64,000 bases of DNA from Candidatus Woesearchaeota archaeon (GTDB lineage Archaea; Nanobdellota; Nanobdellia; Pacearchaeales; GW2011-AR1): contig CAYFMD010000003.1 of assembly GCA_964344105.1 (NCBI GenBank), positions 8,066 to 72,065 on the forward strand. Reading direction: 5' to 3'. The notes beneath the pieces were generated by a model that saw nothing but the letters and a program-made list of their open reading frames with translations, did no database searches and was not told the origin of the DNA. Below, in pieces: positions 1 through 52,861 of this stretch (within the stretch, counting starts at the first letter, position 1; each line of letters begins with the position of its first letter). The translations under genes were made by a program, and so were the position numbers.

Positions 1-1520
1 TCATCATCTTTTGTGAAGGTTATTACTGCTTCCCCTTCAATTCCAGGAACCTCTACATTTAGAGGATATTTTTTGTCTAAGAACATTGCTATTGATCCTG
101 GTTGTATTGTAGAGAATATTTCTTTCTTTGTTTCATAGCCTTCTGCTCTTGCTATTACATAACCGTTTCCACATTGAGGGAATGTTTCTGTTAGTGTTGC
201 ATCGCCAGATTCTATTCTGGTTGTTCCTATCCTACAAACTTCGTCGAAGCATTTGTATTCTATTTGTGCTTCAACAGGTTCGAAGTTAGTGTTGAAGGTT
301 GATACTGAGATTTCTGTGTTCTTGTATCTGCATAGTTCGCTTGCTGTGTTTGCTATGTTAGATCCAGGTATTGGTTCTCTTGGTCTGTTTTTGTTTATGT
401 AGACAACAACAGGGAATTGGAAAACTCCGTCTGGAGTGTGCATTTGTATTAGGACTGGATATGCTAGGTCGTAGACAAAATGATATGGAACGTAACAGAA
501 TCCTAATAGCCCTAATCCTTCTTGAGTTCCTATAGGATCTGCGATTAATAGTCCTCCATCGTTTGGCCAGACTTCCATTTTTGTAGGCCAGTTCCTAGAG
601 AAGTGGAAATTTACCGGGACATCTACATTTTGTCCTATGTCATGGATGAAATATTCATTTTCTTGTTTGCTTAGATCGTAGTAGTCTCCTTTTATTTTTG
701 TGAAAGGTACGTTGGCTTCTAATGCCATTGTTAGATTTGCCCTTACTTCTTCTACATTCCATATTGATGGGCTGCATTGTATTTCTACTCCATCTACCGG
801 AGCGTATAGTCTTAGTATATCTACCCCATAATTTTCTAGGAACATTGATTCCTTGAAATCGTTATAGATATCTAGAGCTAGTTCGTGGAATTTTCCTAAG
901 CTAGATTGTACGTCGTTTGAATGACTCTTTCCTGTCCAAGATTGCTCGCCTCTTTTAATTTCAATTGAATGTGAGACATCAACATCAATTCTGTTTTCTC
1001 TTATGTTTGTTTCTACTTCTATCTCTCTTCCTACTGCTATTTCGAATCCTTCATTTGCAAATCTTGAGAAGTCACATTGTAATATTCTTTGTTCTAGGAA
1101 TTTATCTAATTCCTCCTCCATTGTATCTGTTGTTGGAACTTGTTCTTTTACAAGGTTATTTCCAGAAATGTAATACCAATAAGGTATTGGAATTCCTACA
1201 AAGTCTAGATAGTTAGAGAATGGCATATGTTCTGAACCTGGGTTGAAATCTGGGCCTTCGATGTATCCTCCCTGTTGACCTAATATGTTGGCTGCTATTT
1301 GTGTTTCTAATTCAATACAGCCTAAGTAATATTGATAGACTGGTTCTAGCTCTCCTGGAGGTCCTCCGAAAGATAGATTGCCTCTAAATACGAAGAATAA
1401 GACTATGATTCCTACAATTACTATTGCTAGAATAATGAATACTGTGGCTTGCGCCTTTTTATCACGCTCTTTAGGGATCATTCTTTCTCTTGTATAATCT
1501 TTTATGTTATTTAAACCCAT
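1..1520 (-). CDS. secreted pilin-like protein with N-terminal class III (prepilin-type) signal peptide. The start codon is at 1518-1520 (or an internal ATG at 1479-1481) and the C-terminus runs off the window edge. It is a paralog of the 29401, 36623 and 37622 genes.
   Basis: Reverse-complement translation from the ATG at 1520 gives MGLNNIKDYTRERMIPKERDKKAQATVFIILAIVIVGIIVLFFVF...LGQQGGYIEGP...PIPYWYY. A basic stretch is followed by A|Q and a long hydrophobic helix, with the same QGGY and aromatic motifs as the other paralogs. The reading frame stays open to position 1 and is absent from the ORF track only because it has no in-window stop. Confidence 0.5.
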   Translation of the reverse strand, partial: MGLNNIKDYTRERMIPKERDKKAQATVFIILAIVIVGIIVLFFVFRGNLSFGGPPGELEPVYQYYLGCIELETQIAANILGQQGGYIEGPDFNPGSEHMPFSNYLDFVGIPIPYWYYISGNNLVKEQVPTTDTMEEELDKFLEQRILQCDFSRFANEGFEIAVGREIEVETNIRENRIDVDVSHSIEIKRGEQSWTGKSHSNDVQSSLGKFHELALDIYNDFKESMFLENYGVDILRLYAPVDGVEIQCSPSIWNVEEVRANLTMALEANVPFTKIKGDYYDLSKQENEYFIHDIGQNVDVPVNFHFSRNWPTKMEVWPNDGGLLIADPIGTQEGLGLLGFCYVPYHFVYDLAYPVLIQMHTPDGVFQFPVVVYINKNRPREPIPGSNIANTASELCRYKNTEISVSTFNTNFEPVEAQIEYKCFDEVCRIGTTRIESGDATLTETFPQCGNGYVIARAEGYETKKEIFSTIQPGSIAMFLDKKYPLNVEVPGIEGEAVITFTKDD

Positions 1521-18538: not shown

Positions 18539-18539
18539 T

Positions 18540-25483: not shown

Positions 25484-25485
25484 AC

Positions 25486-28053
25486 ATGGCAGACGATGAA
25501 CAACAAACTCTTGGTAGTGAAGAGGCTGTAGAGGATAATTCTGAAGACTCTAGTGAAGAAAGTAATGGGGATGCAGAACATTTAGAGAAGACTGAAGTTA
25601 ATGTTAAGGATATTGATAAGGATAGAGTTTTGAATATTGAGATTTCTGGTGAGATGAAGAAAGCATATATTGATTATGCGATGAGTGTTATTGTTAATCG
25701 TGCATTGCCTTCTATTGAAGATGGATTGAAGCCGGTTCATAGAAGAATTTTATTTGCTATGAAGCAGATGGGCCTTGAGAAGGGGATGACTAAGAAATCG
25801 GCTAGAATTGTGGGAGATGTTATTGGTAAGTATCATCCTCATGGTGATACTGCAGTTTATGATGCTATGGTTAGAATGGCTCAGGATTTTAGTTTGAGAT
25901 ATCCTTTGGTTTTGGGTCAAGGTAATTTTGGGTCTATGGATGGAGATAACGCAGCAGCTATGAGATATACTGAAGCGAAGTTGCAAAAGCTTTCTGTTGA
26001 ATTGTTAGAAGACCTGGAAAAGAATACTGTTGATATGTTGCCTAATTTTGATAATTCATTGAAAGAACCTTTGGTTCTGCCAGGAAAGGTGCCTGCATTA
26101 TTGATTAATGGTGCTAGTGGTATCGCAGTAGGTATGACTACTAATGTTCCTCCGCATAACTTAAGCGAGGTTTGTGATGGGATTATTGCTACAATCAATA
26201 AACCTAAGATTGATGTTGATGAGTTGATGGAAATTATTAAAGGTCCTGATCTTCCAACTGGAGGAGTTATTGTTGGTGAGAATTTGAAAGAGCTTTATAC
26301 TAATGGTCGTGCAGGATTTGTTATTAGAGGAAAGGTTAAGACTGAAGAGAAGAAGGGTAAGGAACTAATAGTAATTACTGAGATTCCATATCAGGTTAAT
26401 AAGTCTAGTTTGGTTATGCAGATTGCTGATCTTGTTAGGGATAAGAAGTTAACAGAAGTTAGTGATATTAGAGATGAGAGTAGTAAGGGGAATGTTAGAA
26501 TTGTTATTGAAATGAAGAAGGGTGCTAATAGTCAGTTTACGATTAATAGATTGTATAAGTCTACTAAGTTGCAGTCTAGATTTGATGCTGTGCTTGTTGC
26601 TTTGGAAAATGGTGTGCCTAAGACTTTTGGTCTTAAGCAGATGATTGAGAGTTATATTAATTTTAGAAGAAAGATAATTAGGAAGAGAACTGAGTTTGAT
26701 TTAGATAAGGCTGAGAAGAGATTGCATATTGTTGAGGGTTTGTTGTTGGCTCAGAAGGATATCGATAAGGTTATTGAGACAATTAAGAAGAGTAAGACTA
26801 CTGCTGATGCTAAAGAGAATTTGATGAAGAAGTTCAAGTTGAGTGAGAAGCAGTCGGAGGCTATTTTAGAGATTACCTTGAAGCAGTTGACTTCTCTTGA
26901 AAGAGAAAAGCTAGAGAAGGAAGAGAAGGATTTGAAAGAGTTAATTGCTAAGTTGAAGAAGATCTTGGGTGATGAGAAAGAAATCTATAAACTGATTAAA
27001 GCTGATTTAACTGAATTGAAAAAGACTTATGGGGATGATAGGAGAAGTAAGATCATTAAGAGTGTTAAGGATATTGAGGAGAAGGATTTGGTTCAGAAGA
27101 AAGATGTTATAATTACAATAACAGAGAAAGGATACATAAAGAGAATGCCTTTCAAGGCTTATAATGAGCAGAAGCGTGGTGGTAAGGGGGTTATTGGAGC
27201 TGAGTTAAGTACTGAGGATTATGTTAAGGATCTGATAACTTGTTCAACACATGACCACTTGTTGTTGTTTACTGCAAGGGGGAGAATTTTCTGGTTGAAA
27301 GCTTACAAGGTTCCTGAAACTCAAAGATATGGTAAAGGGCAGGCTTTAGTTAATTTATTGAATATCAAAGATGATGTTGTTACTAATGTAATAGCGGTTA
27401 AAGAGTTTAATGATTATTTGTTTATGGCTACAAAGAAAGGACAGGTTAAGAAGATTAAGCTTGATTTGTTTTCTAAGCCAAGAAATGCAGGTGTTAGAAT
27501 CATTAATCTTCCTGCAGATAATAGTGATGAGGTTGTTGGTGTTAAGAGGATAGCTAGTGGCAAGGATGTTATGTTAGTAAGTAAGAAGGGTCAAGCAATT
27601 AAGTTTAATTCAGACGATGTTAGAGATATGGGTAGGGCTAGTTATGGGGTTACTGGTATAAAGATGGATGGAAATGATGAAGTTGTTAGTTTGGAAATTG
27701 TTAATGACCCTTCTTCAAGTATATTGACTATAACTGAAAGAGGAATGGGTAAGAGAAGTAAGGTTGAGGATTATAGGAAGACTGGTCGGGCTGGTAAGGG
27801 TGTTATTAATTTGAAGATAAGTGAAAAAACAGGAGATGTTGTTGATACAATTGATGTTAATGATGGAGATAAGTTTGTTGTTTCAACTAAGAAGGGTATT
27901 GTGATTAAATCTAGTGTTAAGGATATTAGGGTTATGGGGCGTGCGACTTCTGGAGTGACTATAATTAAGTTGGGAAGTGGAGATAGAGTTAGTACAATCG
28001 CTAAGTTGGTTAAGGATGAAGTTAAGGTTTCTGATGAAGAGGCTGATAAGTAA
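25486..28053 (+). CDS. gyrA: DNA gyrase subunit A
   Basis: It contains [38 protein letters not shown] and C-terminal beta-pinwheel repeats. It starts 3 nt after gyrB. Confidence 0.9.
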
Positions 28054-28157: not shown

Positions 28158-29381
28158 TTAAGAAAACATTTCAAGTCTTTCTGTATTGATTATTAGTCTT
28201 GCATAATCTCCTGCTGAGGCTCCTGGATTTGATGTTCTGTCTGTATGGAAGAATGTTCCATCCTCACTTCTTATGAATCCTTTTGAGTTTGGATCGCTAG
28301 CTACTATGAAGCTATCTTGAGGTGCTAGTTTGTTTGATAGTTTGTTAACATCTATATCTAAGTTTTCTAGTAATGGTGCTGCATCTATTCTTTGATTGTG
28401 GACTCTTGTTTTTATTCCAACTTCTAGTACTAGTTCTTGACCTCCAGCATTATAGTTATCTAGATCAATGTGAGGTATGGTTCTTATGTTGTTTCCACTT
28501 TTGTCAATATCATTTCCATTAAGGTGCATGTGTTGCCCTGTTCCTTGTTGTGCTGAAACGAATGTTCTTGATAGGTGGTTTATTATTATATCTGCTAGTG
28601 GGAATGATAGTCCTGTAAGTACTCCATTACTTGTTAATGGATTAACTACAATGTTTGTTGCAATGTCTTTTGGCGTTTGGATTGATATAATTGGTTCATT
28701 GTTTTGATAGTATGTTGTGGCTGCATTTAATTGAGTGGTGTCTGCTAGTCCATCATTGAAATCTATTGATGCAAATCCTTCTTGGCTGTTTGTTGATTCA
28801 ACTCTTTCTTGATTTGTTCCTTCTAAATTTACTGTTTGTCCTCTAAGTCTTCCTATATTTCCATTTGCTAAGACTTCTAGTTCTCTTGCGCCAGTTCCTG
28901 TATCCACTGGCTGGCTTCCATCTGCGAAAGGACTTGAGCTAACCGCTGGAGCCCCGTCTCCTGTTTGATCCTCTGGAGCTAAGACTGCGAAGTTTTGTAA
29001 AAATCCAGAGATTGCTGGGAATACACTTAGAAGATAGCTTCCTGGATCTCCTCCACCTCCTCCTTGAGGGAATGCTCCTGGTGGGGCTGTTAGGCCTCCT
29101 GCTGGACCTCCACCATATGTCGTTCCTTGAGGAGATAAACTCACTTGAGGGAATGCTCCTGCTTGGTGGCTTGCAGAGAGTCTTGTTTGTCCTGATGGAT
29201 CAACCAAGTCTCCATTTGGACTTAGTGTATAGTCGGGGGTGGCTCCTTGGAGGCTATCTAGGTTCCAAAAGGTTGGTTCGCAATAAGTACACCCTGCTTG
29301 GAAGGCAATTACAAAATTTATTGAGATTAAAATTATTGAGATTAATAATCCTTTCTTCATCATTATTTTATTATTTTTCAT
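28158..29381 (-). CDS. secreted G/P-rich protein (407 aa)
   Basis: It has an N-terminal signal peptide MKNNKIMMKKGLLISIILISINFVIAF, followed by a G/P/Q-rich low-complexity region. Confidence 0.45.
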   Translation of the reverse strand: MKNNKIMMKKGLLISIILISINFVIAFQAGCTYCEPTFWNLDSLQGATPDYTLSPNGDLVDPSGQTRLSASHQAGAFPQVSLSPQGTTYGGGPAGGLTAPPGAFPQGGGGGDPGSYLLSVFPAISGFLQNFAVLAPEDQTGDGAPAVSSSPFADGSQPVDTGTGARELEVLANGNIGRLRGQTVNLEGTNQERVESTNSQEGFASIDFNDGLADTTQLNAATTYYQNNEPIISIQTPKDIATNIVVNPLTSNGVLTGLSFPLADIIINHLSRTFVSAQQGTGQHMHLNGNDIDKSGNNIRTIPHIDLDNYNAGGQELVLEVGIKTRVHNQRIDAAPLLENLDIDVNKLSNKLAPQDSFIVASDPNSKGFIRSEDGTFFHTDRTSNPGASAGDYARLIINTERLEMFS

Positions 29382-29400: not shown

Positions 29401-30156
29401 TTAATATCTATTTAGGAATTCGAAGACATATGGTTGTTCCATTGTTCGATTTTCTAAGATCATGACTAATGTGGTATCTTCTTCGAAGGCTATGAAATCT
29501 ACGTATAGTTGTCTATCTCTGGCTAGTTCAGTTATACAGTTTATGCAAATTAGGTTTGGATTTTCCTTATGAGAATCTGTTATGAAAGTTGCTACTTCTA
29601 TGATCTCTTCTAATGAGGAGTTAAGGGTTACAGGATGTTGATTTAGGTTGAAGTTTACTGTGTTTCCATTGCTTTCTATTATTACAGGTAATTCTGTTTC
29701 AAAAGTTAGTGATGTTGATTTTATTTTTGCCTTAGTTTGTGATGGCTCGTATTTTAGTTCTAGATTTTGAAAGTCTATTTGTGATATGCATTTTTCTAGG
29801 TTGGTATCTACATAACTGGCTAGCTCATTTTCTATTGTTTCTTTGAATGGTTGAGTGATAATTCCTTGATCGTAGTAGTATGGAACGAAGGCCCATTGCA
29901 TGTCTAAATGGTTTGTTGGTCTGTTAAAATATCCTCCTTGAATTCCGATTCTAATTAATGCATCTTTTGAGTTTTCTTCTAGACAATCTCTTATGAAATT
30001 TTGTACATTGTTAACTGATGGTTGAAGTCCTTGCTGATCAAAGTATTCTTTGCCTCTGTCTTCTGTTGTATTTCTTACAAAGAAAAATAGAACTATCCCT
30101 ATTACTATCACAATAGCTAATATGATTAGAACTGTTGTCTGTCCTCTTTTTTGCAT
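29401..30156 (-). CDS. pilin-like protein with class III signal peptide (paralog family member)
   Basis: It begins MQKRGQTTVLIILAIVIVIGIVLFFF and carries GIQGGY, PYYYDQ and C..C/CxxC motifs shared with 37622-38383. Confidence 0.55.
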   Translation of the reverse strand: MQKRGQTTVLIILAIVIVIGIVLFFFVRNTTEDRGKEYFDQQGLQPSVNNVQNFIRDCLEENSKDALIRIGIQGGYFNRPTNHLDMQWAFVPYYYDQGIITQPFKETIENELASYVDTNLEKCISQIDFQNLELKYEPSQTKAKIKSTSLTFETELPVIIESNGNTVNFNLNQHPVTLNSSLEEIIEVATFITDSHKENPNLICINCITELARDRQLYVDFIAFEEDTTLVMILENRTMEQPYVFEFLNRY

Positions 30157-30190: not shown

Positions 30191-31267
30191 TTAGTAGGTG
30201 TTTTCTTTTAGTCTCTGTTCGAATTTTGGAGAATAAATAAACTCTCCAACCCTTTTATCAATTTCTGGTTTCCATCTTTGCATTAGTGCAGGTCCGTTAT
30301 CACCAAATGCAGTTTCTAAGTCCTCTTGGCCCTCTGAAGTGTACCTTCTCCAATTTGAGTGATCAAATGATGTCCAGTGTTTTAATGTGTAATCAGTTAC
30401 TGTTCTTTGTGCTTGTTGTAAACTTATTCTGGAACCTTTTCCATCCAAAAGGAATCTTCCTGCTTTCCTAGCGTCATGGAAGTAAAATGCTTCATCTTCA
30501 TTGTTTGGTGCCCATAGCATTCTATATGATTCAATTTCTAGGGTGGTTTCTGCGAATTTTATTGGTATTGGCGTTTTTCCTTCTCGGGGAATCTCTATGT
30601 AGAAAGGGATGGTTTGGATTGGGTATCCTGATGAGGAATATATGTCAAATTCTGCATTTTCTCTGAATCTTTCATAGAAGAACATCATTAATTGATCCAT
30701 TGACATGGGATTAACAACATTCATTGGATGAGTTGGTAGGCCTTTATTATATTCTTGCCTTAATTCTTCAAGTAAATCTACTTCTGTAAATCCGGAAACA
30801 ATAACTTCATTTTCAAGAACGCTTGCTGACTGAGGAGTTCTTATTCCATTTCTTAGAACTATGTCTACCTTTCCAGTTTCTTCGTTAGGTACTAGTGCAT
30901 AATAAGGAATTTGGACATCTCTACCTGAAGTGAATAAATTATAACCTGCTTTTGCATCATCGCTTAGATTTTCTACAGCTTTTTTTGCTCCTACCGATCT
31001 TATATCAATTATCTTTTCTCTTACATCATCTGTGTAACTAAAATCTTCTGGTGTTATCCAGTATCTGAATGGGTCTACTGCTGGGGCTGTGGCTTTTGGT
31101 GTTGCCACAGTTGGTTTTTCATCTGGTTTTTCGGTTGGCGCTGGTTCGGAGTATTCAATTGGTGGAGCGACCGGAACTGGCGGGACTTTTGGTTTATCTT
31201 GTTCACATCCAATTGTGAAAGGTAGTAGAATTAGGGATGTTGCTAATATTCTTTGTACTAAATTCAT
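30191..31267 (-). CDS. secreted lipoprotein-like protein (358 aa)
   Basis: A signal peptide precedes a lipobox-like LPFTIGC, followed by a Pro-rich linker. Confidence 0.4.
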   Translation of the reverse strand: MNLVQRILATSLILLPFTIGCEQDKPKVPPVPVAPPIEYSEPAPTEKPDEKPTVATPKATAPAVDPFRYWITPEDFSYTDDVREKIIDIRSVGAKKAVENLSDDAKAGYNLFTSGRDVQIPYYALVPNEETGKVDIVLRNGIRTPQSASVLENEVIVSGFTEVDLLEELRQEYNKGLPTHPMNVVNPMSMDQLMMFFYERFRENAEFDIYSSSGYPIQTIPFYIEIPREGKTPIPIKFAETTLEIESYRMLWAPNNEDEAFYFHDARKAGRFLLDGKGSRISLQQAQRTVTDYTLKHWTSFDHSNWRRYTSEGQEDLETAFGDNGPALMQRWKPEIDKRVGEFIYSPKFEQRLKENTY

Positions 31268-31299: not shown

Positions 31300-33027
31300 T
31301 TATTTAGACTTTGCAACTATTTCTACTAGTTCAGATAGGCCTCTTGGGAACTCATCTAGATTTCCGTAAGCGCTTTGTTGATATTTATGTAGATAGCTTC
31401 CAGGTATTGTTATTGGTGAAACTCTTAATTCAGTGCTTGTTCCAGTTTCTCCCTTGTCCTTATAAGTTATCCTTCCAAATGATTTTTGACCTCCATCGTC
31501 AAAAGTCACAGTTGTTTGTACAGAGCCAACTATCATTGGACCTCTACTGAATATTTCTCTTTTTATAGTATCCACTTTATCTAATTCAGCCCCTCTTACT
31601 CCTCCTGATTCTAATCCTGTCCTTAATTCTGCAAATGTATCTGATGCTTCATCTTCAGTTATTGCTCTTTGGTAGGTGGTTTCTTCTAATAATTGTGAAA
31701 AGTGGTTGAATCCGTTTCTTCTAATTTGGTCTTCAGTCCATCCATTTGATCTAGCTATTTCTACAAAAGCATCTACTTCGCTTTGTAATGCATAAACTCT
31801 GGTGTCAGAAATGTGTACACCTAACCCTTCTCCTATCGGATTTGCATTACTTATTCCAAATCCAAATCTTGAACAGAAGGATCCTATACATACCCTATTA
31901 CTTTTATCAAATTCTACAAAGGTGGGTCCATTAGGAGTTGAAACTAATTTTCCGTTTGAAAATTTTGGAGGATTCAATTCATTAAATACAATTGTATTCC
32001 CTTTTGGGATTCTTGGATAATTAACACTTCCATCAAAGATGGTTATTTTATCATTACCATTTTTGATTCTAATGTTTTTACCATCTGCTATTGTAGTTAT
32101 TTTTTTTATTTTTGGTCCTTGGTCTAGTAAATCTATTTCAATATCATTTCCTTTTATTCTTAGGTTCTTGGTGTCTTCTTCTACACCCACTAATTGTATG
32201 TATTGTTCTGTTGTTGGTTTTTTTCTATTGAATAAAATTTCTGTCTCTTGATCTGAATTTATTCTTATCTCTGCAGCATTTGTTGTTAGTCTGATGCCTT
32301 TTCCTTTAAATTGTCCCCCCACAGGATCAATTGAGAAAGAAGATTCAGTGTCTGTGCTTGTGTCGAGTCTTTCAAATGATCTATCTCCTACACTAACTTG
32401 CGATCCTCCAATTAGTGAAAATTTTCCATCTTTGCTAATTGAGATAGATCCTTTGTTTGGCTTAAGTTGTATTGCCCCATTATCTTCTGTACTTGAAGGT
32501 ATTTGGCCTGATGTGTATCTTAAATCTTCGTCAACTTGACCTGTTGCATAATCTATAGTTGAGCTATCTTCTAATTCTAATTTTATTCCTTCTCCTTCAG
32601 TATAAGTCACTTCAGTTGTAGATTTTGGCAGATCATCTAGTTTGATCGTTATTGATCCATCACTTAGTGTATTTCTATCTATAAATTCTAATTTTGAACT
32701 CTCAAAACCAGAGAATCTCATTTCATTTACTTGTGAGTTTATTGATGCAACCTTTCCAAAATCAAAAAGGCTTAATCCCTCAGCCTTTCTTTTTTTAAGG
32801 GCATGTTTTGCTATTCCTGAGAATACTTGTCCTCTGTTTATTGATGGGTCTTCTAGAATTCTTTTTTGTTCACTTAAGGGTAATGTAGATACAGTTTCCC
32901 AGTCTCCAGAATCAATTGATTGTTGTATAAGCTCCTGAAGCTCTGTATCTGACATTTGTGTGAGGGATAGTGGTAGAACTAATATTATTCCTAGAATAAT
33001 TAGTAAATAGATATTTGTAAGTTTCAT
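31300..33027 (-). CDS. secreted protein (575 aa)
   Basis: It has an N-terminal signal/anchor MKLTNIYLLIILGIILVLPLSL. Confidence 0.45.
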   Translation of the reverse strand: MKLTNIYLLIILGIILVLPLSLTQMSDTELQELIQQSIDSGDWETVSTLPLSEQKRILEDPSINRGQVFSGIAKHALKKRKAEGLSLFDFGKVASINSQVNEMRFSGFESSKLEFIDRNTLSDGSITIKLDDLPKSTTEVTYTEGEGIKLELEDSSTIDYATGQVDEDLRYTSGQIPSSTEDNGAIQLKPNKGSISISKDGKFSLIGGSQVSVGDRSFERLDTSTDTESSFSIDPVGGQFKGKGIRLTTNAAEIRINSDQETEILFNRKKPTTEQYIQLVGVEEDTKNLRIKGNDIEIDLLDQGPKIKKITTIADGKNIRIKNGNDKITIFDGSVNYPRIPKGNTIVFNELNPPKFSNGKLVSTPNGPTFVEFDKSNRVCIGSFCSRFGFGISNANPIGEGLGVHISDTRVYALQSEVDAFVEIARSNGWTEDQIRRNGFNHFSQLLEETTYQRAITEDEASDTFAELRTGLESGGVRGAELDKVDTIKREIFSRGPMIVGSVQTTVTFDDGGQKSFGRITYKDKGETGTSTELRVSPITIPGSYLHKYQQSAYGNLDEFPRGLSELVEIVAKSK

Positions 33028-33132: not shown

Positions 33133-33846
33133 ATGAATAATATGAGAAAAGCGATGAATGGATTAATGACAGGTGGTTTGGCATTGGTATTAGGCTATGC
33201 CGGATCTGGACTTGATACTCCTAGCTATGCACAGGATGCTCCTGAAGATGATAGAATAGCTCAGTCTGAAGGTAGATTGGAAAGTAGATTAGTTGATGTA
33301 GATAGTAAGTTAAGATATGATGTTTTTGATAGAATTTATGATGGGGAGACTATTGCTAAATATGCGAAGGTTAGTGATGAAGCTTTAGCTAGAGAATATG
33401 GTGATGGATATGTTGCTGAGGTTGGGAGGGTTAAGAAAGCTAGAGGATTTGCTATTGGTTATGGTGAAGCTTTAGAAGATGCTTTTGATAATCCTGAAGC
33501 AGTTATTTCTGCAATGGATGATTCGGATAGGGAACTATATGGGGAATTTGATGCTACTGAGACTTTGAAGAAACAAGGTAAAGATTCTAATTTTAGAGAA
33601 ATGTTGGGAGTTGCTGATAGTTATGAGTTCTCTGCTGATAGGGAATCTGATAAGTTAGCTGCATTTGTTGCAAAGTATGTTGCTGATGATATGGATGCTT
33701 ATGTTACAACTTCTTTAGGTGTTGCTAAGGTAGTCTTGGCTGCTGGCGATCCTTCATTATTGAAAGATGTTAGAGCTTCTAAGGTAGATCCAGAATCTGA
33801 AAGGTTTAGTAGAGCTACTAAGACACTTAGAAGAATTTTTAAGTAA
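33133..33846 (+). CDS. secreted protein (237 aa)
   Basis: It has a signal peptide ...GLALVLGYAGSG. It is convergent with the 928-aa gene. Confidence 0.4.
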   Translation: MNNMRKAMNGLMTGGLALVLGYAGSGLDTPSYAQDAPEDDRIAQSEGRLESRLVDVDSKLRYDVFDRIYDGETIAKYAKVSDEALAREYGDGYVAEVGRVKKARGFAIGYGEALEDAFDNPEAVISAMDDSDRELYGEFDATETLKKQGKDSNFREMLGVADSYEFSADRESDKLAAFVAKYVADDMDAYVTTSLGVAKVVLAAGDPSLLKDVRASKVDPESERFSRATKTLRRIFK

Positions 33847-36633
33847 TTATCTTACTAGTCCTTTTTTTCTGTCTCTTTTGTATCTCATCTGGCCTGTTCT
33901 ACCGAAGTATCTTGGTGAGTTCTTTTGGTATCTATATTGGGTTGTTTGAGTGGGAGTGTCTCTTCTTGTTGTGGGTGTTTGAGTAATTTGAGTGTTTTGA
34001 GGGGTTGAGGGATTTACGATTCTTTGTATGTATCTTGGATCATTTACAGTTCCTTGTATTGTTGGATCTATCCCACTAGTTGTGGCTACAACATTCCAAG
34101 TTCCTGGATGGAATACTCTTGATCCTGAAGTGTCATAAACTCTATTTGTAGAAGGACCTCCTAGGCTATCTAATATACTAGGCATTGCAGTGTGTACTAT
34201 TGGTGCTAGGTCTGGATTGATGATATGTGTCTGTCCGTTAACTGTTAGTTGGTATAGTCCAGATCCTCCCTCGTAACTTATGGTTCTTAGATCTCCTCCG
34301 TAAGAAGTTATTGAATTTCTTAGGAATTGAACAGCTCGATCTGCTTCTCTTACTGCACTGTCTCTAACTTCTAAGATTGATTGGCCCCTATTCAGTAATC
34401 CTGAAACGCTTCTTGTTAATTCAGAAGTTCCTGGAGATGCTATAGCTCCTGCACCTATGTCTACCATGTTTCCAATTATTTCTTCAGTTGCTTTTCCAGG
34501 GGTTCCTGATATGTCTATCGGTTTTCCTATTGTAGATTGTAACCTTTCCGATAAACTATCTAGTGCAGGAAGGCCCTCATAATAAATTTTACTTGCCTTC
34601 TTTCCTGCTGCTTCTTGCCCTACCCTTCCTGAAGATGAATAGGTAGTTAGATCAATGTCAATTGCATAATCTGAATCTGCAAGTCTTGCGTAGAATTTGG
34701 CTTTGTCATCTGGATCTCCTGAGTTATATAGTTTTAATAATTCACCATGCTCTACTCTTTCAACTTGGGTATTTACAGTCCCAACACTGTATTGGGTTCC
34801 TCCTTCAAATAGGTTTGCGAAAAATCCATCTTCTCTAGAAACTTGCCCAAATAATCCTGTTCCTCCAAATGTTACGGTATCAGATCCAGTCCTAGTTATT
34901 CTGGGAGCTCCGTAATTGTTTGAGGATATGCTGAACTGGTTTCCCCCATTGTCTGAGGTTATTGATCCTATGCTGTAAAAATTTCCAAAGTTAGTTGTTG
35001 ATGCAGTTTTTTTGTCTATAGAAACTCCTGCTGGAGATCCTCTGATTATTATTTCATCTCCATTGTATACTTTCCCTCCATTTATTCTTAGTTCTCCAAT
35101 ATTTCCATTTAGTTCTGCTTGCATGAAGCCTTGTTGGTATCTTCCTTTTTGTAATGTTGAAGAACTTATTCTATCTGTTAATGAATTTACTTGTCCTGCT
35201 AGTTGTGTACTTAACTCAGAAGTTATTTTTCCTTGTTCTGTTATTTGTGATATTGTTCCTCCTATTTGTTCTATCTCTTGAGATGATATTGCTGATGATA
35301 ATGCAGAATAAAGCTCGCTTTCAGGTGCTATTTGTAATTGTTCCTGTAATAAGCTTTCAATTAAGGGAGATGCAGTGCTCGCTAGTTGAAATCCTTCTAA
35401 GACTGAGAGTTCTGATTTATCTTTTTCAAGTAATGGTATTACTTGCTTGTAGCGGTCTACTTTTTGTTTTAATCCCTCTACACTATCTATTGCAGTTTTA
35501 GCAGCATCTGTTTCTAAGTCTCCTTGCAAGATATCAACAATTCCTCTAGCATTATCAAAAGTTCCTCTTTCAACACTTGATTCGAAAGTTTGTAAGATAT
35601 CATCATAAAGACTTCTTCCTTTTTGGTTCATAAATAGGAATCCTTTCTTTCCATCTTTTCCTATAAAATCAGGGTCGTATACTAGAATGTTTTCATCTCC
35701 CAAATCTCCTATTGCTTTTTCAAAAGTATCTCTTGATGAGAAGAATTTTGTATCTTCTCCAGTGAAGAATTGATGTTTATCTCTTTCTAGGTAAGCATGT
35801 GATAATGTGTCTATTTTTCCATCTTCATTGAAAGTTACTGTTGCAGGTTTGCTTTCTCCTTCTCTTTGATATGTACTTAACTTTGTTCCATCAGGTGATG
35901 CAAATCTTGACGCTGTTTCTGGATCTTCAGTAGCTAGTGATATTTTTGTTTTTTCAGAAGTTGAATCTATTGTTATATCTCCTCTTCCGTTCCATTTTCC
36001 AGACATTGGATCATCATAATCTGGTACCCTTTCTTCATTTAGCCTTACAAATTGATTTGTATCTGGGTCGAAGAAATACCCTCTTTGATTATCGGCTACA
36101 TTTAAGGTTACTGAACCATCTTTTTTCTTCATAATTAGTGAATGGCCATTCTCTGTTTTTTCATAAGTGACTTCAGTTATTGGGTTATCTGGGTTTTGTT
36201 GATTGTACAATTCTATATCGCTTCCTCTGAAATATGTTTTTGAATTCCCGAAAACACTTCCACTTCCAGGTCTTGTATTCTCATCGAATCCGGTCATTTT
36301 TACATTTCCATATTCTTCTCCATATTTTTTCATGAATTCAGATCTTTTTTCTGGATCTAAGTGTTCCCAAACTGATTGTTTTTTTGATTGGGTTGATTCA
36401 GCCTCCCAGTTTCTCCAGAAGTCTCCATTAATTTCATCTATTAGTGATTGTTGTTGTTCAGGCGTTAGTCTTTCAATATTGTCTGTTAGGATTGAAAGAT
36501 CATGGGTGTCTCTAAATCTATCAAGCTCTGTTTGAAATTGTTCATCTGTTAGTGGGTTTTCTTGTGATAAAACTAGGCTTATGGATAGAATGAATAGTAT
36601 GCTGATTACAGGTAGTATTTTTTTATAGTTCAT
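33847..36633 (-). CDS. large secreted protein (928 aa) with basic C-terminal tail
   Basis: It has a signal peptide MNYKKILPVISILFILSISLVLSQ. It overlaps the upstream pilin-like gene by 11 nt. It ends RYKRDRKKGLVR. Confidence 0.5.
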   Translation of the reverse strand: MNYKKILPVISILFILSISLVLSQENPLTDEQFQTELDRFRDTHDLSILTDNIERLTPEQQQSLIDEINGDFWRNWEAESTQSKKQSVWEHLDPEKRSEFMKKYGEEYGNVKMTGFDENTRPGSGSVFGNSKTYFRGSDIELYNQQNPDNPITEVTYEKTENGHSLIMKKKDGSVTLNVADNQRGYFFDPDTNQFVRLNEERVPDYDDPMSGKWNGRGDITIDSTSEKTKISLATEDPETASRFASPDGTKLSTYQREGESKPATVTFNEDGKIDTLSHAYLERDKHQFFTGEDTKFFSSRDTFEKAIGDLGDENILVYDPDFIGKDGKKGFLFMNQKGRSLYDDILQTFESSVERGTFDNARGIVDILQGDLETDAAKTAIDSVEGLKQKVDRYKQVIPLLEKDKSELSVLEGFQLASTASPLIESLLQEQLQIAPESELYSALSSAISSQEIEQIGGTISQITEQGKITSELSTQLAGQVNSLTDRISSSTLQKGRYQQGFMQAELNGNIGELRINGGKVYNGDEIIIRGSPAGVSIDKKTASTTNFGNFYSIGSITSDNGGNQFSISSNNYGAPRITRTGSDTVTFGGTGLFGQVSREDGFFANLFEGGTQYSVGTVNTQVERVEHGELLKLYNSGDPDDKAKFYARLADSDYAIDIDLTTYSSSGRVGQEAAGKKASKIYYEGLPALDSLSERLQSTIGKPIDISGTPGKATEEIIGNMVDIGAGAIASPGTSELTRSVSGLLNRGQSILEVRDSAVREADRAVQFLRNSITSYGGDLRTISYEGGSGLYQLTVNGQTHIINPDLAPIVHTAMPSILDSLGGPSTNRVYDTSGSRVFHPGTWNVVATTSGIDPTIQGTVNDPRYIQRIVNPSTPQNTQITQTPTTRRDTPTQTTQYRYQKNSPRYFGRTGQMRYKRDRKKGLVR

Positions 36634-37453
36634 TTGGTGGAAGTGTTATATCTTTAATTGAAGATTCAGATTCCGGAGATGGGATGAATATTACTTCATT
36701 TGTTCTATCTAAGCTAGCCTCTCTTACTTCTAAGAAGTTGAATGATCTAGGATAGGTGTCTGTTTTTTTAGATGATATTATTATGCTGATTATTTCTTCG
36801 TCGAAATTACTTATTTCAAAGTTTACATCATAAAGATCGGTTATATCTGATAAACAGTCAAGACAAACGGCATTTTGATTACTTATTAAGTATAGTTCTG
36901 ATGCTGAAATTAGATCATTTAGTTGAGAATCAATTTTATCATCACTTAGTTTTATGGTTGTTGAATCTTCTGCTTTTGAAATTGATAATGTTGTTGCTTG
37001 TTCTATGTATACAGAGTCTTGTTCAATATAAGGTAGTGAGTATATTTCTATCGCCTCTATGGTGTAATCGGGGAATCTTCCTCTAGTTTCACTTATGCAT
37101 ATTTGTGTATTTTCATCAATTATTAGCCCAAGATCAAGTTCAGTCACTTCTCTATTTGGAATCACTACATTATCATTGTACCTATATATTGGCATAAACA
37201 AGCCTACGTCACTTAGGTATGGCACGTGAGGTTCTTTTGAATATCCTCCTTGAGCTGAAACAAATTCTATTGAGTCTATGTATACTTGATTCATGCATTC
37301 TTCTGTGAATTGTTTAATGTTTTCAGACTCTTTATCAAATTCAGTTGAACCTAAATTACCATTATTTCCTAGTGTGAAAAATAGAATTATTGCTACTAGT
37401 GCTATGACTATTGCTAGGATTATAAGAATGGTAACTTGCCCCTTTTTCTTCAT
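36623..37453 (-). CDS. pilin-like protein with class III signal peptide (paralog family member)
   Basis: It begins MKKKGQVTILIILAIVIALVAIILFF and contains AQGGY and CLDCL motifs. Confidence 0.5.
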   Translation of the reverse strand: MKKKGQVTILIILAIVIALVAIILFFTLGNNGNLGSTEFDKESENIKQFTEECMNQVYIDSIEFVSAQGGYSKEPHVPYLSDVGLFMPIYRYNDNVVIPNREVTELDLGLIIDENTQICISETRGRFPDYTIEAIEIYSLPYIEQDSVYIEQATTLSISKAEDSTTIKLSDDKIDSQLNDLISASELYLISNQNAVCLDCLSDITDLYDVNFEISNFDEEIISIIISSKKTDTYPRSFNFLEVREASLDRTNEVIFIPSPESESSIKDITLPPNEL

Positions 37454-37496: not shown

Positions 37497-37625
37497 AATT
37501 TTTCACTAACATCCTTTTAACCCTTCTCACAATCTCACTTACAAGCCTTAACCCTCCCACCCACCCTAAGTAGTGAAAGTGAGAATGTTCGACCACCCTC
37601 TATTAAGAGGATGGTGAAAAATTAG
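37497..37625 (-). repeat. conserved ~125-bp intergenic element, copy A (leader/promoter of pilin-like gene 36623-37453)
   Basis: It is about 88% identical to 52938-53066. Both copies share ctaagtagtgaaagtgaga and a C-tract ccctcccacccaccc, which on the minus-strand sense reads GGGTGGGTGGGAGGG. Confidence 0.6.
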
Positions 37626-38383
37626 TATTTGTTTAGAAATTGAAAGACGTAGGGATCTTGGTCTTCGAATGATTTTGATATAACTACTAATGTACTTGTG
37701 TCTTCTTCAGACTCTAAAAAATCAACAAAAAGATTTTTTCCATCAGCCATTTCTGCTACACAACTTACGCATAGGTTTTCTGGATCTTCCCTATGTGTTT
37801 CTGCAATGAATGTAGCTATTTCTATTGCATCGTTTAATGGACTAGGTATTTCTACTGGGTGATTTTCCAAAGTTAGAGTTTCAGTTAGACCTTCTTTAGA
37901 TATTTGGATATTTAGATTTGTATTAAATTCAATTGATCCCTGATTTATTTTTGCAGTTGATTGCGAATTCTTATATTCTAAAGATAGTTCGCTGTTTCTT
38001 ATTTGACTTAAACAGAAATCTATATTGTCATCAAGGTAGTTTGCTAGTTCAGATTCTATCCTTTGATTTGATGGTTGAAGGATTGTTGGTTGATCGTAGT
38101 AGTATGGTATGAATGCTATTCCTATATCTTCTACTTTTGCTGGTTGATTGTAGTAGCCTCCCTGAATTCCTATTACTATGTTAGCATCTTCTGCTATGGT
38201 CTTTAAGCATTCTAATATTGATGATTGGACAACTGTTGCTTGAGATGTTGCTCCAATTTTTGAGAAAGCATTTTCAATATTTGATGATGAAGACTCATTG
38301 TTCAGGAAAGAGAAGATTAGGATTCCTACGATTACAACTACTGCTAGAATTATTAGAATTGTAACTTGTGCTCTTTTTTGCAT
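37622..38383 (-). CDS. pilin-like protein with class III signal peptide (paralog family member)
   Basis: It begins MQKRAQVTILIILAVVVIVGILIF and contains GIQGGYYNQP, PYYYDQ, CLSQI and CVSCV. Confidence 0.55.
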   Translation of the reverse strand: MQKRAQVTILIILAVVVIVGILIFSFLNNESSSSNIENAFSKIGATSQATVVQSSILECLKTIAEDANIVIGIQGGYYNQPAKVEDIGIAFIPYYYDQPTILQPSNQRIESELANYLDDNIDFCLSQIRNSELSLEYKNSQSTAKINQGSIEFNTNLNIQISKEGLTETLTLENHPVEIPSPLNDAIEIATFIAETHREDPENLCVSCVAEMADGKNLFVDFLESEEDTSTLVVISKSFEDQDPYVFQFLNKY

Positions 38384-39811: not shown

Positions 39812-40708
39812 TTGATTAGTTTGATGGATTGGAAAAGAGGATTTGGAATTGGATTGATGTTTATTGGAATCTATTTGATAGCTGTAAATGGGGGTATCAC
39901 TGGAAATGTTATTGGGTTTGGAGATGGTGAGGGAAATAATGTTTTGGGATTTTTGGGGATTGTTGTTTTTTTAGTTGGAGCTTTTTTTTCGTTTATTGCT
40001 AGGAAATCCGGAGTTCCTGTCCCAAAAAAATTAGAGGACATAGTCCAGGTTGTAGAATATGGGAATAGTATTGATAATCCGAATTATCAACATTTTGATG
40101 ATCCTGATGAGATAATTCTTGATTCTAATGCTGTTATCTCTTTGTACCATGGGTTTAGTTCTGAAAACGATAGGATATTGGGGGATATTTTTGATAACCC
40201 TCAGTATGAATTGACTGTTCCTGAAAGTGTTTTAAATGAGTTAAAGGGATTGTCAACTTCTTCTCAGAGATCTCGATCCGGAAAAAAGCAGACTATTCCG
40301 AGGAAAGTTTTCTCTTACATATATAATCGGGCGCATTCTGATCCTCATTATAATTTGGAACCTGATGTTGATTACTCTGATAATCAGATAGATTATTTAA
40401 GAAGGAAGTGGGATGATTTTTCAGATACTAGGGAGGGTAGGCGGTTGGTGCATGGTATAGGGAAGGATTTTCAGAGTGATTTGATTAATGTTGCTGATGG
40501 GAAGGTTGCTATGCTTGCTTATGAAAGGGCTGTGATAGATGGTAAGAATGTTTTTGTATTCACAGATGATGCTGCTTTAAAGGGTGTTTTGAGGGAGATG
40601 AATAGGGATCTAACTAGGGATCAAAAACCAAACATTATTTATGGAGGATTTGAAGATTGGAAAGCTTATTATTCTGGATATAGCTCAGAGAGTGCTGTAG
40701 CAGCTTAG
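39812..40708 (+). CDS. membrane-anchored protein with PIN-like C-terminal domain (tentative)
   Basis: It has two N-terminal TM helices. The pattern IILDSNAVISLY...LTVPESVLNELKGL...VFVFTDDAALKGV resembles the acidic-residue pattern of a PIN domain. Confidence 0.3.
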   Translation: MISLMDWKRGFGIGLMFIGIYLIAVNGGITGNVIGFGDGEGNNVLGFLGIVVFLVGAFFSFIARKSGVPVPKKLEDIVQVVEYGNSIDNPNYQHFDDPDEIILDSNAVISLYHGFSSENDRILGDIFDNPQYELTVPESVLNELKGLSTSSQRSRSGKKQTIPRKVFSYIYNRAHSDPHYNLEPDVDYSDNQIDYLRRKWDDFSDTREGRRLVHGIGKDFQSDLINVADGKVAMLAYERAVIDGKNVFVFTDDAALKGVLREMNRDLTRDQKPNIIYGGFEDWKAYYSGYSSESAVAA

Positions 40709-52354: not shown

Positions 52355-52861
52355 TTAAGCGACGGCAGTATCTGCTACACCGCAAAGCTTGTTAGTTTCT
52401 CCAACGATAGCAGCTATTTCTACAACCTTATTTCCTACAAGATCGGCAGTAATTTCTAGAGTTTCTAGCTCGTTAAGTGAAGATGCATCTACAGAATCTG
52501 CAACAACTTCTCCATCAGAAAGTACGCTTATTGCTCTTAAGTCTCCTCCGCCAGGGGTTCTCTTAACTAAAACTCCTGCATCAGTCCATACTCTCTCTAT
52601 AGGATCTGTGTCTATGTCACCGTCATGATCCCACAAACCATTACATGTTTGCTCATTTCCAGCAACATCATTACATGAAACGAATCTTAACTTCTCGATT
52701 TCCAAACCTACTGTGAAACAGTCGCTTTGGCCTCCGATTTCATCGGCTCCTTGTTGAACAGTTCCTTGTACAACTTGCCAAACAATTACTATAGCAGCTA
52801 AAACCAACAAGATTATCAACACTGTTGTGATAATTTGTGATTGTGCTTTTTTATTAAACAT
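52355..52861 (-). CDS. small secreted protein with class III (prepilin-like) signal peptide, Cys/Asp-rich globular part
   Basis: It begins MFNKKAQSQIITTVLIILLVLAAIVIVW. An AGGAGGT SD lies 12 nt upstream. It is preceded by copy B of the conserved element. Confidence 0.5.
   Translation of the reverse strand: MFNKKAQSQIITTVLIILLVLAAIVIVWQVVQGTVQQGADEIGGQSDCFTVGLEIEKLRFVSCNDVAGNEQTCNGLWDHDGDIDTDPIERVWTDAGVLVKRTPGGGDLRAISVLSDGEVVADSVDASSLNELETLEITADLVGNKVVEIAAIVGETNKLCGVADTAVA

What the first reader, a model, noticed from the sequence alone, without database searches (positions are those of the whole stretch)
29401..30156. Novel paralogous family of ~250-aa pilin-like proteins with shared GIQGGY / PYYYDQ / Cys motifs (4 copies in window)
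Genes 29401-30156 and 37622-38383 are clearly homologous. Their N-termini are MQKRGQTTVLIILAIVIV and MQKRAQVTILIILAVVVI. They share IGIQGGY(F/Y)N.P, (V/I)PYYYDQ, L.NH(P)V, C(I/L)SQI and CI/VxC...(L/Q)(Y/F)VDF motifs, and both end ...(F/Q)(E/Q)FLN(R/K)Y. Gene 36623-37453 (MKKKGQVTILIILAIVIALV, AQGGY, CLDCL) and the window-edge gene 1-1520 (KKAQATVFIILAIVIV, QQGGY, PYWYY) are more divergent members of the same family. The basic residues followed by G/A then Q and a ~20-residue hydrophobic helix are the hallmark of archaeal class III signal peptides processed by PibD/FlaK. The conserved cysteines suggest a disulfide-stabilised globular head. Four or more paralogs in 64 kb, each next to secreted-protein genes, is unusual.
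Basis: seen in the sequence. Interest (0 to 1): 0.7.

Follow-up and report, generated by a model that had tools for sequence, protein, structure and literature searches.

The report
Pilin-signal anchor proteins paired with giant secreted proteins
The four look-alike genes are real members of a very large, unnamed protein family of tiny DPANN archaea (Woesearchaeota/Pacearchaeota) that carries a pilin-type N-terminal signal on a new kind of head domain, and each gene sits just upstream of a large secreted protein that it probably holds on the cell surface.

Summary
Observation confirmed. A (29401-30156), B (37622-38383), C (36623-37453) and D (1-1520, cut by the window edge; 635 aa in full) are paralogues, and every quoted motif is positionally conserved.

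The family is large: 5,740 50%-identity clusters at E<=1e-10. It has no Pfam or NCBIfam model, and named members come only from Woesearchaeota, Pacearchaeota or Nanoarchaeota MAGs.

The N-terminus K-[KR]-[GAS]-Q plus about 22 hydrophobic residues is the best-conserved part (Q in 191/197 representatives). It fits a class III (prepilin) signal and aligns with the N-terminus of a canonical pilin in the window (E, 52355-52861).

New finding: family genes lie directly upstream, on the same strand, of large Sec-signal proteins that lack any other anchor (30/57 versus 11/332 control genes). Subfamilies track partner families (29/32). D precedes a 2,161-aa protein.

Best reading: processed, membrane- or pilus-embedded adaptors that display cognate secreted proteins. 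Cleavage, filament incorporation and partner binding are inferred. No pilus machinery lies on this 83-kb contig.

The parts
29401..30156 (-). Family member A (251 aa). MQKRG|Q leader, hydrophobic helix 7-28, variable linker about 29-47, alpha/beta head with C58, C123, C204 and C207.
   Evidence: ORF. Sixty-one close homologues. AF2 model pLDDT 88.5. No Pfam or NCBIfam hit.
37622..38383 (-). Family member B (253 aa). First gene of the B-C-n928 triplet.
   Evidence: 45% identical to A, E 1e-78. HMM E 3.5e-104. The same two-members-then-partner order recurs in L014, L030, L026 and L009.
36623..37453 (-). Family member C (276 aa), divergent. Its stop region overlaps the start of the 928-aa partner by 11 nt.
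   Evidence: BLASTP to A E 2e-13. HMM E 5e-64. Its orthologues in L010, L014 and L029 precede homologues of the 928-aa protein.
1..1520 (-). Family member D, long form. It is 635 aa in full and the window holds the first 506 codons. It shares the signal, helix and first ~180 aa of the head, then has a long C-terminal extension.
   Evidence: Translation. BLASTP to A E 3e-12. HMM E 1.4e-30. Full gene, and a 4-nt overlap with a 2,161-aa Sec-signal protein, on the parent contig.
28158..29381 (-). Partner of A: 407-aa secreted protein. It has an N-terminal signal and no other hydrophobic segment. It starts 19 nt downstream of A.
   Evidence: Homologous to the partners of A-type members in 10 other loci and to n575. 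No Pfam hit.
33847..36633 (-). Partner of C (and possibly of B): 928-aa secreted protein with a basic C-terminal tail.
   Evidence: It is 29% identical to the 904-aa protein that follows the C-type member in L005 (E 3e-45). No Pfam hit.
31300..33027 (-). 575-aa secreted protein, a paralogue of the 407-aa partner, in the same gene string.
   Evidence: Falls in the same BLAST cluster as n407. Homologous to the L005 597-aa and 632-aa proteins. N-terminal signal and no C-terminal anchor.
30191..31267 (-). 358-aa protein with a lipoprotein-like N-terminus (LLPFTIGC), lying between n575 and A.
   Evidence: Sequence. No Pfam or NCBIfam hit. No BLAST homologue in the fetched loci.
33133..33846 (+). 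237-aa small secreted protein on the opposite strand inside the cluster. Small opposite-strand secreted or lipoprotein genes occupy the same position in relatives.
   Evidence: No detectable sequence homologue.
52355..52861 (-). E: canonical archaeal type IV pilin (168 aa). It is a different family and is used here as an internal comparison. It is evidence that the organism makes class III signal substrates.

Best explanation
A, B, C and D belong to a large, unnamed family of extracytoplasmic proteins specific to Woesearchaeota and Pacearchaeota.

Each protein starts with a class III (prepilin-type) signal: a short basic leader ending K-[KR]-[GAS], then an invariant Gln, then a strongly conserved ~22-residue hydrophobic helix. 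I infer the following chain of events:
1. The leader is removed by the cell's prepilin peptidase.
2. The helix stays in the membrane, or enters the base or tip of a type IV pilus-like fibre as a minor, modular pilin.
3. A flexible linker holds a disulfide-braced alpha/beta head outside the cell.
4. The head binds the large Sec-secreted protein encoded immediately downstream, which has no anchor of its own.

Each family member, sometimes two in tandem, would therefore be the dedicated anchor or adaptor that displays one cognate giant surface protein. The partners are probably adhesins or coat proteins used in cell-cell contact.

What is shown: homology, the conserved motif, the predicted architecture, the gene pairing and the co-diversification.
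What is inferred: cleavage, location in a fibre, and physical binding to the partner.
For: Family and conservation:
- Paralogy.
- Family size: 8,421 / 5,740 / 1,130 cluster representatives at E<=1e-3 / 1e-10 / 1e-30.
- The cleavage-type motif is conserved in 197 representatives: K/R at -3 in 161, K/R at -2 in 162, G/A/S at -1 in 193, Q at +1 in 191.
- The leader and helix are the most conserved blocks: 2.63 and 2.27 bits, against 1.80 for the head and 1.06 for the linker.
- A FlaFind-like rule picks out A-D in the window, plus one borderline extra hit (the 407-aa partner). It is met by 130/199 representatives, and 27 more fail only because of Ser at -1.

Link to pili:
- The N-terminus aligns profile-to-profile with that of the window's canonical pilin E: 28 columns, 43% identity, E 2e-4, hhalign probability 46%.
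- E shares the KKA-Q site.
- A related MAG has a T2SSE ATPase, two T2SSF genes and an E-type pilin about 5 kb from a family pair on one contig.

Extracytoplasmic head:
- 116/143 members have exactly 4 Cys. C204 and C207 are lost together while C58 and C123 are kept, in 6 cases.

Pairing:
- 30/57 family genes, against 11/332 control genes, have a same-strand downstream gene within 150 nt that is at least 350 aa long and has a hydrophobic N-terminus. Many pairs overlap.
- D overlaps a 2,161-aa secreted protein.
- Of partners, 35/39 have an N-terminal signal and 0/39 have a C-terminal anchor.
- The nearest family homologue in another genome has a partner from the same homology group in 29/32 cases, against 0.21 expected by chance.

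Precedent from the literature:
- Class III signals on non-filament proteins, and PilY-like adhesins beside minor pilins in archaeal loci (PMC4858521; bioRxiv 10.64898/2026.04.22.720090).
Against: - No prepilin peptidase, pilus ATPase or platform gene lies in the window or on the rest of its 83-kb contig.
- A-D do not reach the curated archaeal pilin N-terminal models.
- The model shows the helix ending at about residue 31, followed by a low-confidence variable linker, unlike the continuous helix of pilin E. That argues against tight packing in a filament.
- Co-diversification could partly reflect inherited gene order rather than a physical interaction.
- No complex prediction or expression data were available.
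Confidence: 0.5

Rival explanations
1. The N-terminus is an uncleaved signal anchor. The proteins are N-in/C-out bitopic membrane proteins that serve as stalks for the neighbouring large secreted proteins. This would be a two-component surface coat comparable in logic to Sulfolobus SlaB/SlaA, with no link to pilus machinery.
For: - No pilus or peptidase genes on the 83-kb contig.
- A flexible linker and a non-pilin head.
- No hit to pilin N-terminal models.
- The pairing with anchorless secreted proteins fits an anchor role equally well.
Against: - A plain anchor needs only basic residues plus a hydrophobic span. It does not explain near-invariant G/A/S-Gln at the boundary, or the position-specific conservation of the helix (F at +4 in 168/197, A at +8 in 137/197).
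- The same KKA-Q site occurs in the window's canonical pilin, and the two N-termini align.
Confidence: 0.25
2. The proteins are dedicated maturation or export helpers for the downstream protein rather than its permanent anchor. Examples would be a membrane-tethered foldase, or a thiol-disulfide oxidoreductase acting through the CxxC motif.
For: - Tight operon-like pairing and co-diversification.
- A conserved CxxC at the start of a predicted helix.
- Two of 38 partners carry thioredoxin domains.
Against: - Twelve of the 39 partners analysed have no cysteine at all, and most have 0-2, so they are poor oxidoreductase clients.
- No thioredoxin-like or other enzyme fold was found.
- Six members lack the CxxC but keep the rest.
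- Few conserved polar catalytic-type residues. The conserved positions are Gly, Tyr, Pro, Cys and hydrophobic residues.
Confidence: 0.12
3. The proteins are the main filament-forming pilins of a DPANN-specific pilus.
For: - A class III-like signal and a highly conserved N-terminal helix.
- Several paralogues per genome, as with major pilins in haloarchaea (PMC4858521).
Against: - The helix is short and separated from the head by a variable, low-confidence linker.
- The head is 200 aa and alpha/beta, or 600 aa in D. It is unlike the beta-sandwich head on a continuous 47-residue helix seen in pilin E of the same genome.
- E-type pilins, not this family, lie close to the ATPase and platform genes in L014, about 1.2 kb away versus about 5 kb for the family pair.
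Confidence: 0.05

Closest known systems
Archaeal class III signal peptide proteins that are not major pilins: predicted minor pilins, and the Sulfolobus bindosome sugar-binding proteins (GlcS, AraS, TreS)
   Same: A short basic leader, a [KR]-[GA] site and a hydrophobic helix at the N-terminus of an extracellular globular protein with a non-filament function. The genes are often encoded away from the pilus machinery (bioRxiv 10.64898/2026.04.22.720090; PMC4858521). The motif is met here.
   Different: The head has no substrate-binding-protein fold or Pfam domain, and no ABC transporter genes are adjacent. The genes are instead paired with large secreted proteins. There is no hit to curated pilin N-terminal models.
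Bacterial minor-pilin/pseudopilin tip complexes with a non-pilin adhesin (PilVWX-FimU + PilY1; GspHIJK), and modular pilins such as Streptococcus sanguinis PilB
   Different: Fold similarity is below a convincing level. Partners have no PilY1/DUF2341 or other known adhesin domain. There is no Glu5. The helix is not continuous with the head. The domain of life and the peptidase type differ.
Sulfolobales S-layer pair SlaB (membrane stalk) / SlaA (large outer protein)
   Same: Adjacent genes for a small membrane-anchored protein and a large secreted protein without an anchor.
   Different: From my own knowledge, SlaB has a Sec signal and a C-terminal anchor. This family has an N-terminal class III-like signal and helix. 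There are several diverged pairs per genome rather than one lattice pair. No sequence or fold relation was found.
Canonical archaeal type IV pilin or archaellin N-terminal domain proteins (TIGR02537), represented by E in this window
   Same: The K-K-[GA]-Q site and a similar hydrophobic core. TTVLIIL occurs in both A and E, and the hhalign E-value is 2e-4.
   Different: E has one continuous 47-residue helix and an Ig/FN3-like beta-sandwich. A has a 28-residue helix, a linker and a novel alpha/beta head. There is also a four-residue offset after the Gln.

Membership tests
Archaeal class III signal peptide (prepilin-type) proteins | N-terminal short basic leader, [KR]-[GA(S)] cleavage site, then a ~20-residue uncharged hydrophobic stretch (FlaFind-type rule, recalled from my own knowledge of Szabo et al. 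2007) | tested here: met
   A-D all match. Among family representatives, Q at +1 in 191/197, G/A/S at -1 in 193/197 and K/R at -2 in 162/197.
Archaeal class III signal peptide (prepilin-type) proteins | Actual removal of the leader by a FlaK/PibD/EppA-type aspartic peptidase | not testable with these tools
   There are no proteomic data. No Peptidase_A24-type gene lies in the window, on the contig flanks or in the fetched loci.
Archaeal type IV pilins / archaellins | Match to curated N-terminal domain models (NCBIfam TIGR02537; Pfam pilin or class III signal models) | tested here: not met
   A-D give no hit at E<=0.1 in NCBIfam. In Pfam the only hit is Flp1_like for A at E 0.12. There is no consistent Pfam family among 143 members. 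Protein E of the same window does hit TIGR02537.
Archaeal type IV pilins / archaellins | One long continuous N-terminal helix whose C-terminal half packs on a beta-sheet or beta-sandwich head | tested here: not met
   The model of A has helix 4-31, breaks, a low-pLDDT linker at 30-47, then a three-helix alpha/beta head. The model of E has helix 4-50 plus a beta-sandwich.
Archaeal type IV pilins / archaellins | Genomic or functional link to a secretion ATPase and a platform protein | tested here: inconclusive
   Neither is present in the window or its 83-kb contig. In the Woesearchaeota MAG contig L014, a T2SSE gene, two T2SSF genes and an E-type pilin lie about 5 kb from a family pair.
Minor-pilin + PilY1-type adhesin tip modules | Pilin-signal gene(s) adjacent to a large non-pilin secreted protein | tested here: met
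   30/57 versus 11/332 control genes. In the window: A-n407, C-n928 and D-2161 aa.
Minor-pilin + PilY1-type adhesin tip modules | Partner carries PilY1, DUF2341 or other known adhesin domains; the pilin has a minor-pilin fold | tested here: not met
Bindosome-type substrate-binding proteins | Substrate-binding-protein fold and neighbouring ABC transporter genes | tested here: not met
   No SBP domain or fold was found. The neighbours are secreted proteins, gyrase and TruB, not transporters.
SlaA/SlaB-type S-layer pair | Small subunit with a Sec signal and a C-terminal membrane anchor; sequence or fold relation to SlaB | tested here: not met
   The only hydrophobic segment is N-terminal. There is no PDB sequence or fold match.

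The most novel reading that the evidence does not exclude
The family and its partners form a previously undescribed surface-display system of Woesearchaeota and Pacearchaeota. In this reading, a set of interchangeable pilin-signal adaptors, each co-evolving with its own giant secreted protein, is processed by the prepilin peptidase. The adaptors are then loaded by a single type IV pilus machinery onto the membrane or a fibre. This would give these host-dependent ultra-small archaea a repertoire of switchable adhesins for contacting other cells: an 'adhesin bindosome' built on a new head fold.
Probability: 0.3. Interest if true: 0.75.

Novelty: new variant of a known kind. Interest (0 to 1): 0.55.

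Why it matters
Woesearchaeota and Pacearchaeota are abundant, uncultured, ultra-small archaea thought to depend on other cells. How they attach to partners is unknown.

This family is one of their largest lineage-specific protein families, with thousands of 50%-identity clusters and several copies per roughly 1-Mb genome. It has no annotation, and it is consistently wired to the biggest secreted proteins in the genome.

If the adaptor model holds, three things follow:
- It identifies the anchoring principle for their surface proteins.
- It extends the use of class III signals beyond filaments and sugar-binding proteins.
- It gives concrete, testable protein pairs for studying DPANN-host contact.

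It would also justify a new family model, so that thousands of 'hypothetical proteins' become interpretable.

Tried and rejected
- Known-domain searches gave nothing consistent. This covers Pfam and NCBIfam on A-E and neighbours, Pfam on 143 family members and Pfam on 38 partners.
- A profile search of PDB sequences found nothing meaningful.
- Four-Cys zinc site: rejected. C204 and C207 are lost together while C58 and C123 stay.
- Thiol oxidoreductase acting on the partner: unlikely, because many partners have no Cys.
- Viral or mobile origin: no relatives in viral contigs.
- Rosetta-stone fusion of D's C-terminal extension with partner families: no significant similarity.
- Search for a prepilin peptidase or pilus machinery: absent from all annotated window ORFs, the contig flanks, a crude GxGD regex over all fetched loci, and the L014 neighbours.
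- Homologue search for the 407-aa partner gave only 3 hits because of low-complexity word saturation, so no partner structure was attempted.
- The first genome-contig scan with the broad alignment failed for lack of a conserved block. It was repeated with a narrower alignment.
- n237 and n358 have no detectable homologues in the relatives' clusters.
- Literature searches found no description of this family.

Full report
**1. The observation**

The four ORFs are present on the minus strand:
- A: 29401-30156 (251 aa)
- B: 37622-38383 (253 aa)
- C: 36623-37453 (276 aa)
- D: running off the left edge of the window, 1-1520

Pairwise BLASTP results:
- A and B are 45% identical over their full length, E 1e-78.
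- C matches A at E 2e-13 and B at E 1e-10.
- D shares its first ~150-190 residues with A (E 3e-12) and with C (E 6e-12).

An HMM of the family recovers exactly these four ORFs from all window ORFs of at least 60 aa.

The parent contig shows that D is 635 aa in full.

A fifth gene, E (52355-52861, 168 aa), also starts with KKAQ plus a hydrophobic stretch. It belongs to another family, described in section 5.

**2. Host and family size**

The window is archaeal. It carries ribosomal protein S3Ae, Kae1, archaeal-type TGT and Elp3.

Sixty-one close homologues of A were found. All are unnamed or 'hypothetical'. The few named sources are 'Nanoarchaeota archaeon' or 'archaeon' MAGs, plus Tara and GOS marine samples.

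A scan of one genome per species returned 34 loci. Every one comes from a Candidatus Woesearchaeota, Pacearchaeota, Nanoarchaeota or unclassified 'archaeon' MAG.

A profile search of 1.84 billion cluster representatives gave:
- 8,421 hits at E<=1e-3
- 5,740 hits at E<=1e-10
- 1,130 hits at E<=1e-30

No Pfam-A or NCBIfam model matches A-D. No Pfam family recurs among 143 diverse members. No relatives occur in viral contigs.

So the family is unannotated, but it is very large rather than peculiar to this genome.

Multiple clustered copies are typical:
- Up to four in a 20-kb locus (L017, L018, L030).
- At least 5-6 per MAG.

**3. The N-terminus**

I anchored 197 representatives on the start of the hydrophobic run. 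The consensus is K-[KR]-[GAS]-Q-[VIT]-[TS]-[IV]-F-I-I-x-A-I. Counts out of 197:

| Position | Residue | Count |
|---|---|---|
| +1 | Gln | 191 |
| -1 | Gly/Ala/Ser | 193 |
| -2 | Lys/Arg | 162 |
| +4 | Phe | 168 |

Information content by block:

| Block | Bits |
|---|---|
| Leader and cleavage site | 2.63 |
| Hydrophobic helix | 2.27 |
| Globular part | 1.80 |
| Linker | 1.06 |

A FlaFind-like rule was written from my own knowledge of the published pattern. In the window it is met by A-D, plus a borderline hit on the Sec-like signal of the 407-aa neighbour. Among representatives it is met by 130/199, and 27 more fail only because Ser replaces Gly/Ala at -1.

A simple signal anchor would not need an invariant small-residue-Gln boundary. 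This is the strongest argument for processing by a class III signal peptidase. It remains an inference.

**4. The rest of the protein**

AlphaFold2 with a 32-sequence alignment gave a confident model: pLDDT 88.5, pTM 0.78. Its elements are:
- Helix 4-31.
- A low-confidence, sequence-variable linker, about residues 30-47.
- A head made of helix 48-72, a hairpin at 83-96, helix 105-125, six strands at 132-179, helices 182-195 and 205-214, and three strands at 218-250.

Fold and sequence searches against solved structures:
- Foldseek found nothing at E<=1e-3.
- A profile search of PDB sequences found nothing meaningful.

Cysteine pattern in the 143-sequence alignment:
- 132 members have all four conserved Cys.
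- Six lack both C204 and C207 but keep C58 and C123.
- 116 have exactly four Cys.

This pattern fits two independent disulfides and an extracytoplasmic location. It does not fit a four-Cys metal site.

**5. An internal control: protein E**

Evidence that E is a canonical archaeal pilin:
- It reaches the TIGR02537 archaellin/type IV pilin N-terminal model at its cutoff.
- Its homologues are called 'flagellin-like protein' or 'archaellin/type IV pilin N-terminal domain-containing protein' by their sources.
- Its model (pLDDT 89.8) has one continuous helix 4-50 followed by a beta-sandwich.

The same methods therefore recognise a canonical pilin in this genome and show that A is built differently.

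Even so, the two N-termini align profile-to-profile as KRGQ----TTVLIILAIVIV against KKAQSQIITTVLIILL-VLAA. That is 28 columns at 43% identity, E 2e-4, probability 46%. Both families keep Gln at +1.

In a Woesearchaeota MAG contig (L014), the following lie on one contig, about 5 kb from a pair of family genes with their 929-aa partner:
- a T2SSE-type ATPase gene
- two T2SSF platform genes
- an E-type pilin gene

The lineage therefore has pilus machinery. No such genes and no Peptidase_A24-type gene lie in the window or on the flanks of its 83-kb contig. None was seen in the fetched loci either.

**6. Gene context: the main new result**

In the window the minus-strand string runs B, C, a 928-aa protein, a 575-aa protein, a 358-aa lipoprotein-like protein, A, and a 407-aa protein. 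One small secreted protein lies on the other strand.
- C overlaps the 928-aa gene by 11 nt.
- A is 19 nt from the 407-aa gene.
- D overlaps a 2,161-aa gene by 4 nt.

Across non-redundant loci I asked whether the downstream gene is on the same strand, within 150 nt, at least 350 aa long, and has a hydrophobic N-terminus. This holds for 30 of 57 family genes and for 11 of 332 control genes from the same loci. Several failures are contig ends or tandem family genes.

Properties of the partners:
- Of 39 analysed, 35 have an N-terminal signal-like segment, none has a C-terminal hydrophobic anchor, and one has an internal segment.
- They have almost no Pfam domains.
- They fall into about six homology groups. 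The window's 407-aa and 575-aa proteins are themselves paralogues.

Family subtypes track partner groups. The closest family homologue from another genome is paired with a partner of the same group in 29 of 32 cases, against 0.21 expected by chance. Family-family bit scores are higher when the partners are related (Mann-Whitney p 5e-21).

The order 'two family genes, then one partner' recurs: B-C-n928 here, and in L014, L030, L026 and L009.

Pairs therefore appear to duplicate and diverge as units.

**7. Mechanism**

I commit to the adaptor model. The steps are:
1. Class III signal processing (inferred, about 0.7).
2. Retention of the helix in the membrane, or insertion at low copy into a type IV pilus-like fibre (inferred, open).
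3. Display of a disulfide-braced head on a flexible linker (predicted).
4. Binding of the cognate anchorless secreted protein encoded downstream (inferred from pairing and co-diversification).

The conserved aromatic/Gly patch (GxQGGY, PYYY) is a candidate binding surface. This was not tested.

The rivals are:
- **An uncleaved signal anchor with the same stalk role.** It does not explain the invariant cleavage-type boundary.
- **A maturation helper or oxidoreductase.** Twelve of the 39 partners analysed have no Cys, and no enzyme fold was found.
- **A major filament pilin.** The architecture argues against it, and E-type pilins are the ones found closest to the machinery.

A rhomboid protease gene (41160-41792) is syntenic with family clusters in L013 and L018. 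It could in principle process such anchors. From my own knowledge, the rhomboid recognition rule favours hydrophobic P4 and P2' residues, and the non-hydrophobic P4 position here fits it poorly. The shared KKA-Q site with pilin E favours the prepilin peptidase.

**8. Comparison with known systems**

The family works most like two known kinds of system:
- Non-filament class III signal proteins, such as the Sulfolobus bindosome binding proteins and predicted archaeal minor pilins.
- Bacterial minor-pilin/PilY1 tip modules or modular pilins (PMC4858521; bioRxiv 10.64898/2026.04.22.720090).

Membership of the curated archaeal pilin families fails on two tested features, the model hits and the continuous helix. 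Membership of SBP, PilY1-module and SlaAB families fails on fold and domain features. I file it as a new variant of the class III signal protein theme, with a new head domain and an obligate partner gene.

**9. Verdict**

- The 'archaeal class III signal, DPANN, disulfide head' reading is largely supported by sequence statistics.
- The 'pilin-like with beta-sandwich head' and 'unusual copy number' parts are not supported.
- The added value is the conserved, co-diversifying pairing with giant secreted proteins.
- Interest is moderate (0.55). It is not categorically new. It is a large, unannotated, lineage-defining family with a testable role in the surface biology of uncultured ultra-small archaea.

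Noticed in passing
It has a KKA-Q site, a continuous 47-residue helix and an Ig/FN3-like head. The same position between the GluRS and Elp3 genes is kept in distant relatives (L045 and a 285-kb JGI contig).
   Followed up: yes
window 28158-29381, 33847-36633; loci L013, L018, L035, L036, L038 partner genes: Many of the large partner proteins end in a short basic/aromatic tail, for example ...GLFRRLFRRR, ...LKGFFRRWS, ...RRGWRSFWGR, ...GRFLFGRR and ...KRDRKKGLVR. There is no hydrophobic anchor. This may be a conserved sorting or attachment signal.
   Followed up: partly
window 41160-41792 (-); L013 971-1594; L018 1589-2242: A rhomboid protease gene is syntenic with the family clusters. In L013 it lies directly upstream of a family gene. 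This may be only conserved gene order, but a rhomboid is a conceivable alternative processor of single-pass anchors.
   Followed up: partly
window 47955-49670 (-) and 45812-47962 (-): A bacterial-type DnaG primase (CHC2 zinc finger, catalytic core, Toprim, DnaB-binding domain) in an archaeal genome. It overlaps by 8 nt a 716-aa protein whose C-terminus is an RNase H-like / PolB-exonuclease-like domain and whose first ~520 residues have no Pfam match.
   Followed up: no
window 23594-28053 (+); L005 19873-20783; L009 15208-18387; L008 10661-14449: The gyrB-gyrA pair lies next to the surface-protein cluster in several relatives. GyrB is intein-free here (629 aa). It is 1,059-1,062 aa in L005 and L009, with an intein domain hit in L005. 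GyrA is 1,262 aa in L008 against 855 aa here.
   Followed up: no
window 17216-23389 (-), 13537-16494: A surface-glycan gene block: three GT4-type and one GT2 glycosyltransferases, a fused sulfotransferase/TylF-like methyltransferase (17216-18538), LicD, and a DUF6056-like membrane protein. It lies just upstream of gyrase and the secreted-protein cluster.
   Followed up: no
window 39812-40708 (+); L018 2252-2626: A conserved neighbour with the N-terminus MDWKRGFGIGLMFIGIYLIAVNGGITGNVIGFG. This is a different basic-Gly-hydrophobic start, with no Pfam match. Its N-terminal 55 residues are 51% identical to a 124-aa ORF beside the cluster in L018.
   Followed up: partly
L041 553-7038 (-), just left of the window: The gene after D encodes a 2,161-aa secreted protein. 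Its first ~150 residues are extremely rich in Tyr, Asn, Gln and Gly (a prion-like low-complexity region). It has 30 cysteines and no Pfam domain.
   Followed up: partly
L014 3685-4588 and 5921-7286; JGI contig of P0030: Nucleotidyltransferase/HEPN (HepT-like) toxin-antitoxin-type pairs are inserted between pilus genes and family clusters in relatives. They are also found immediately after a family gene on the 112-kb JGI contig.
   Followed up: no
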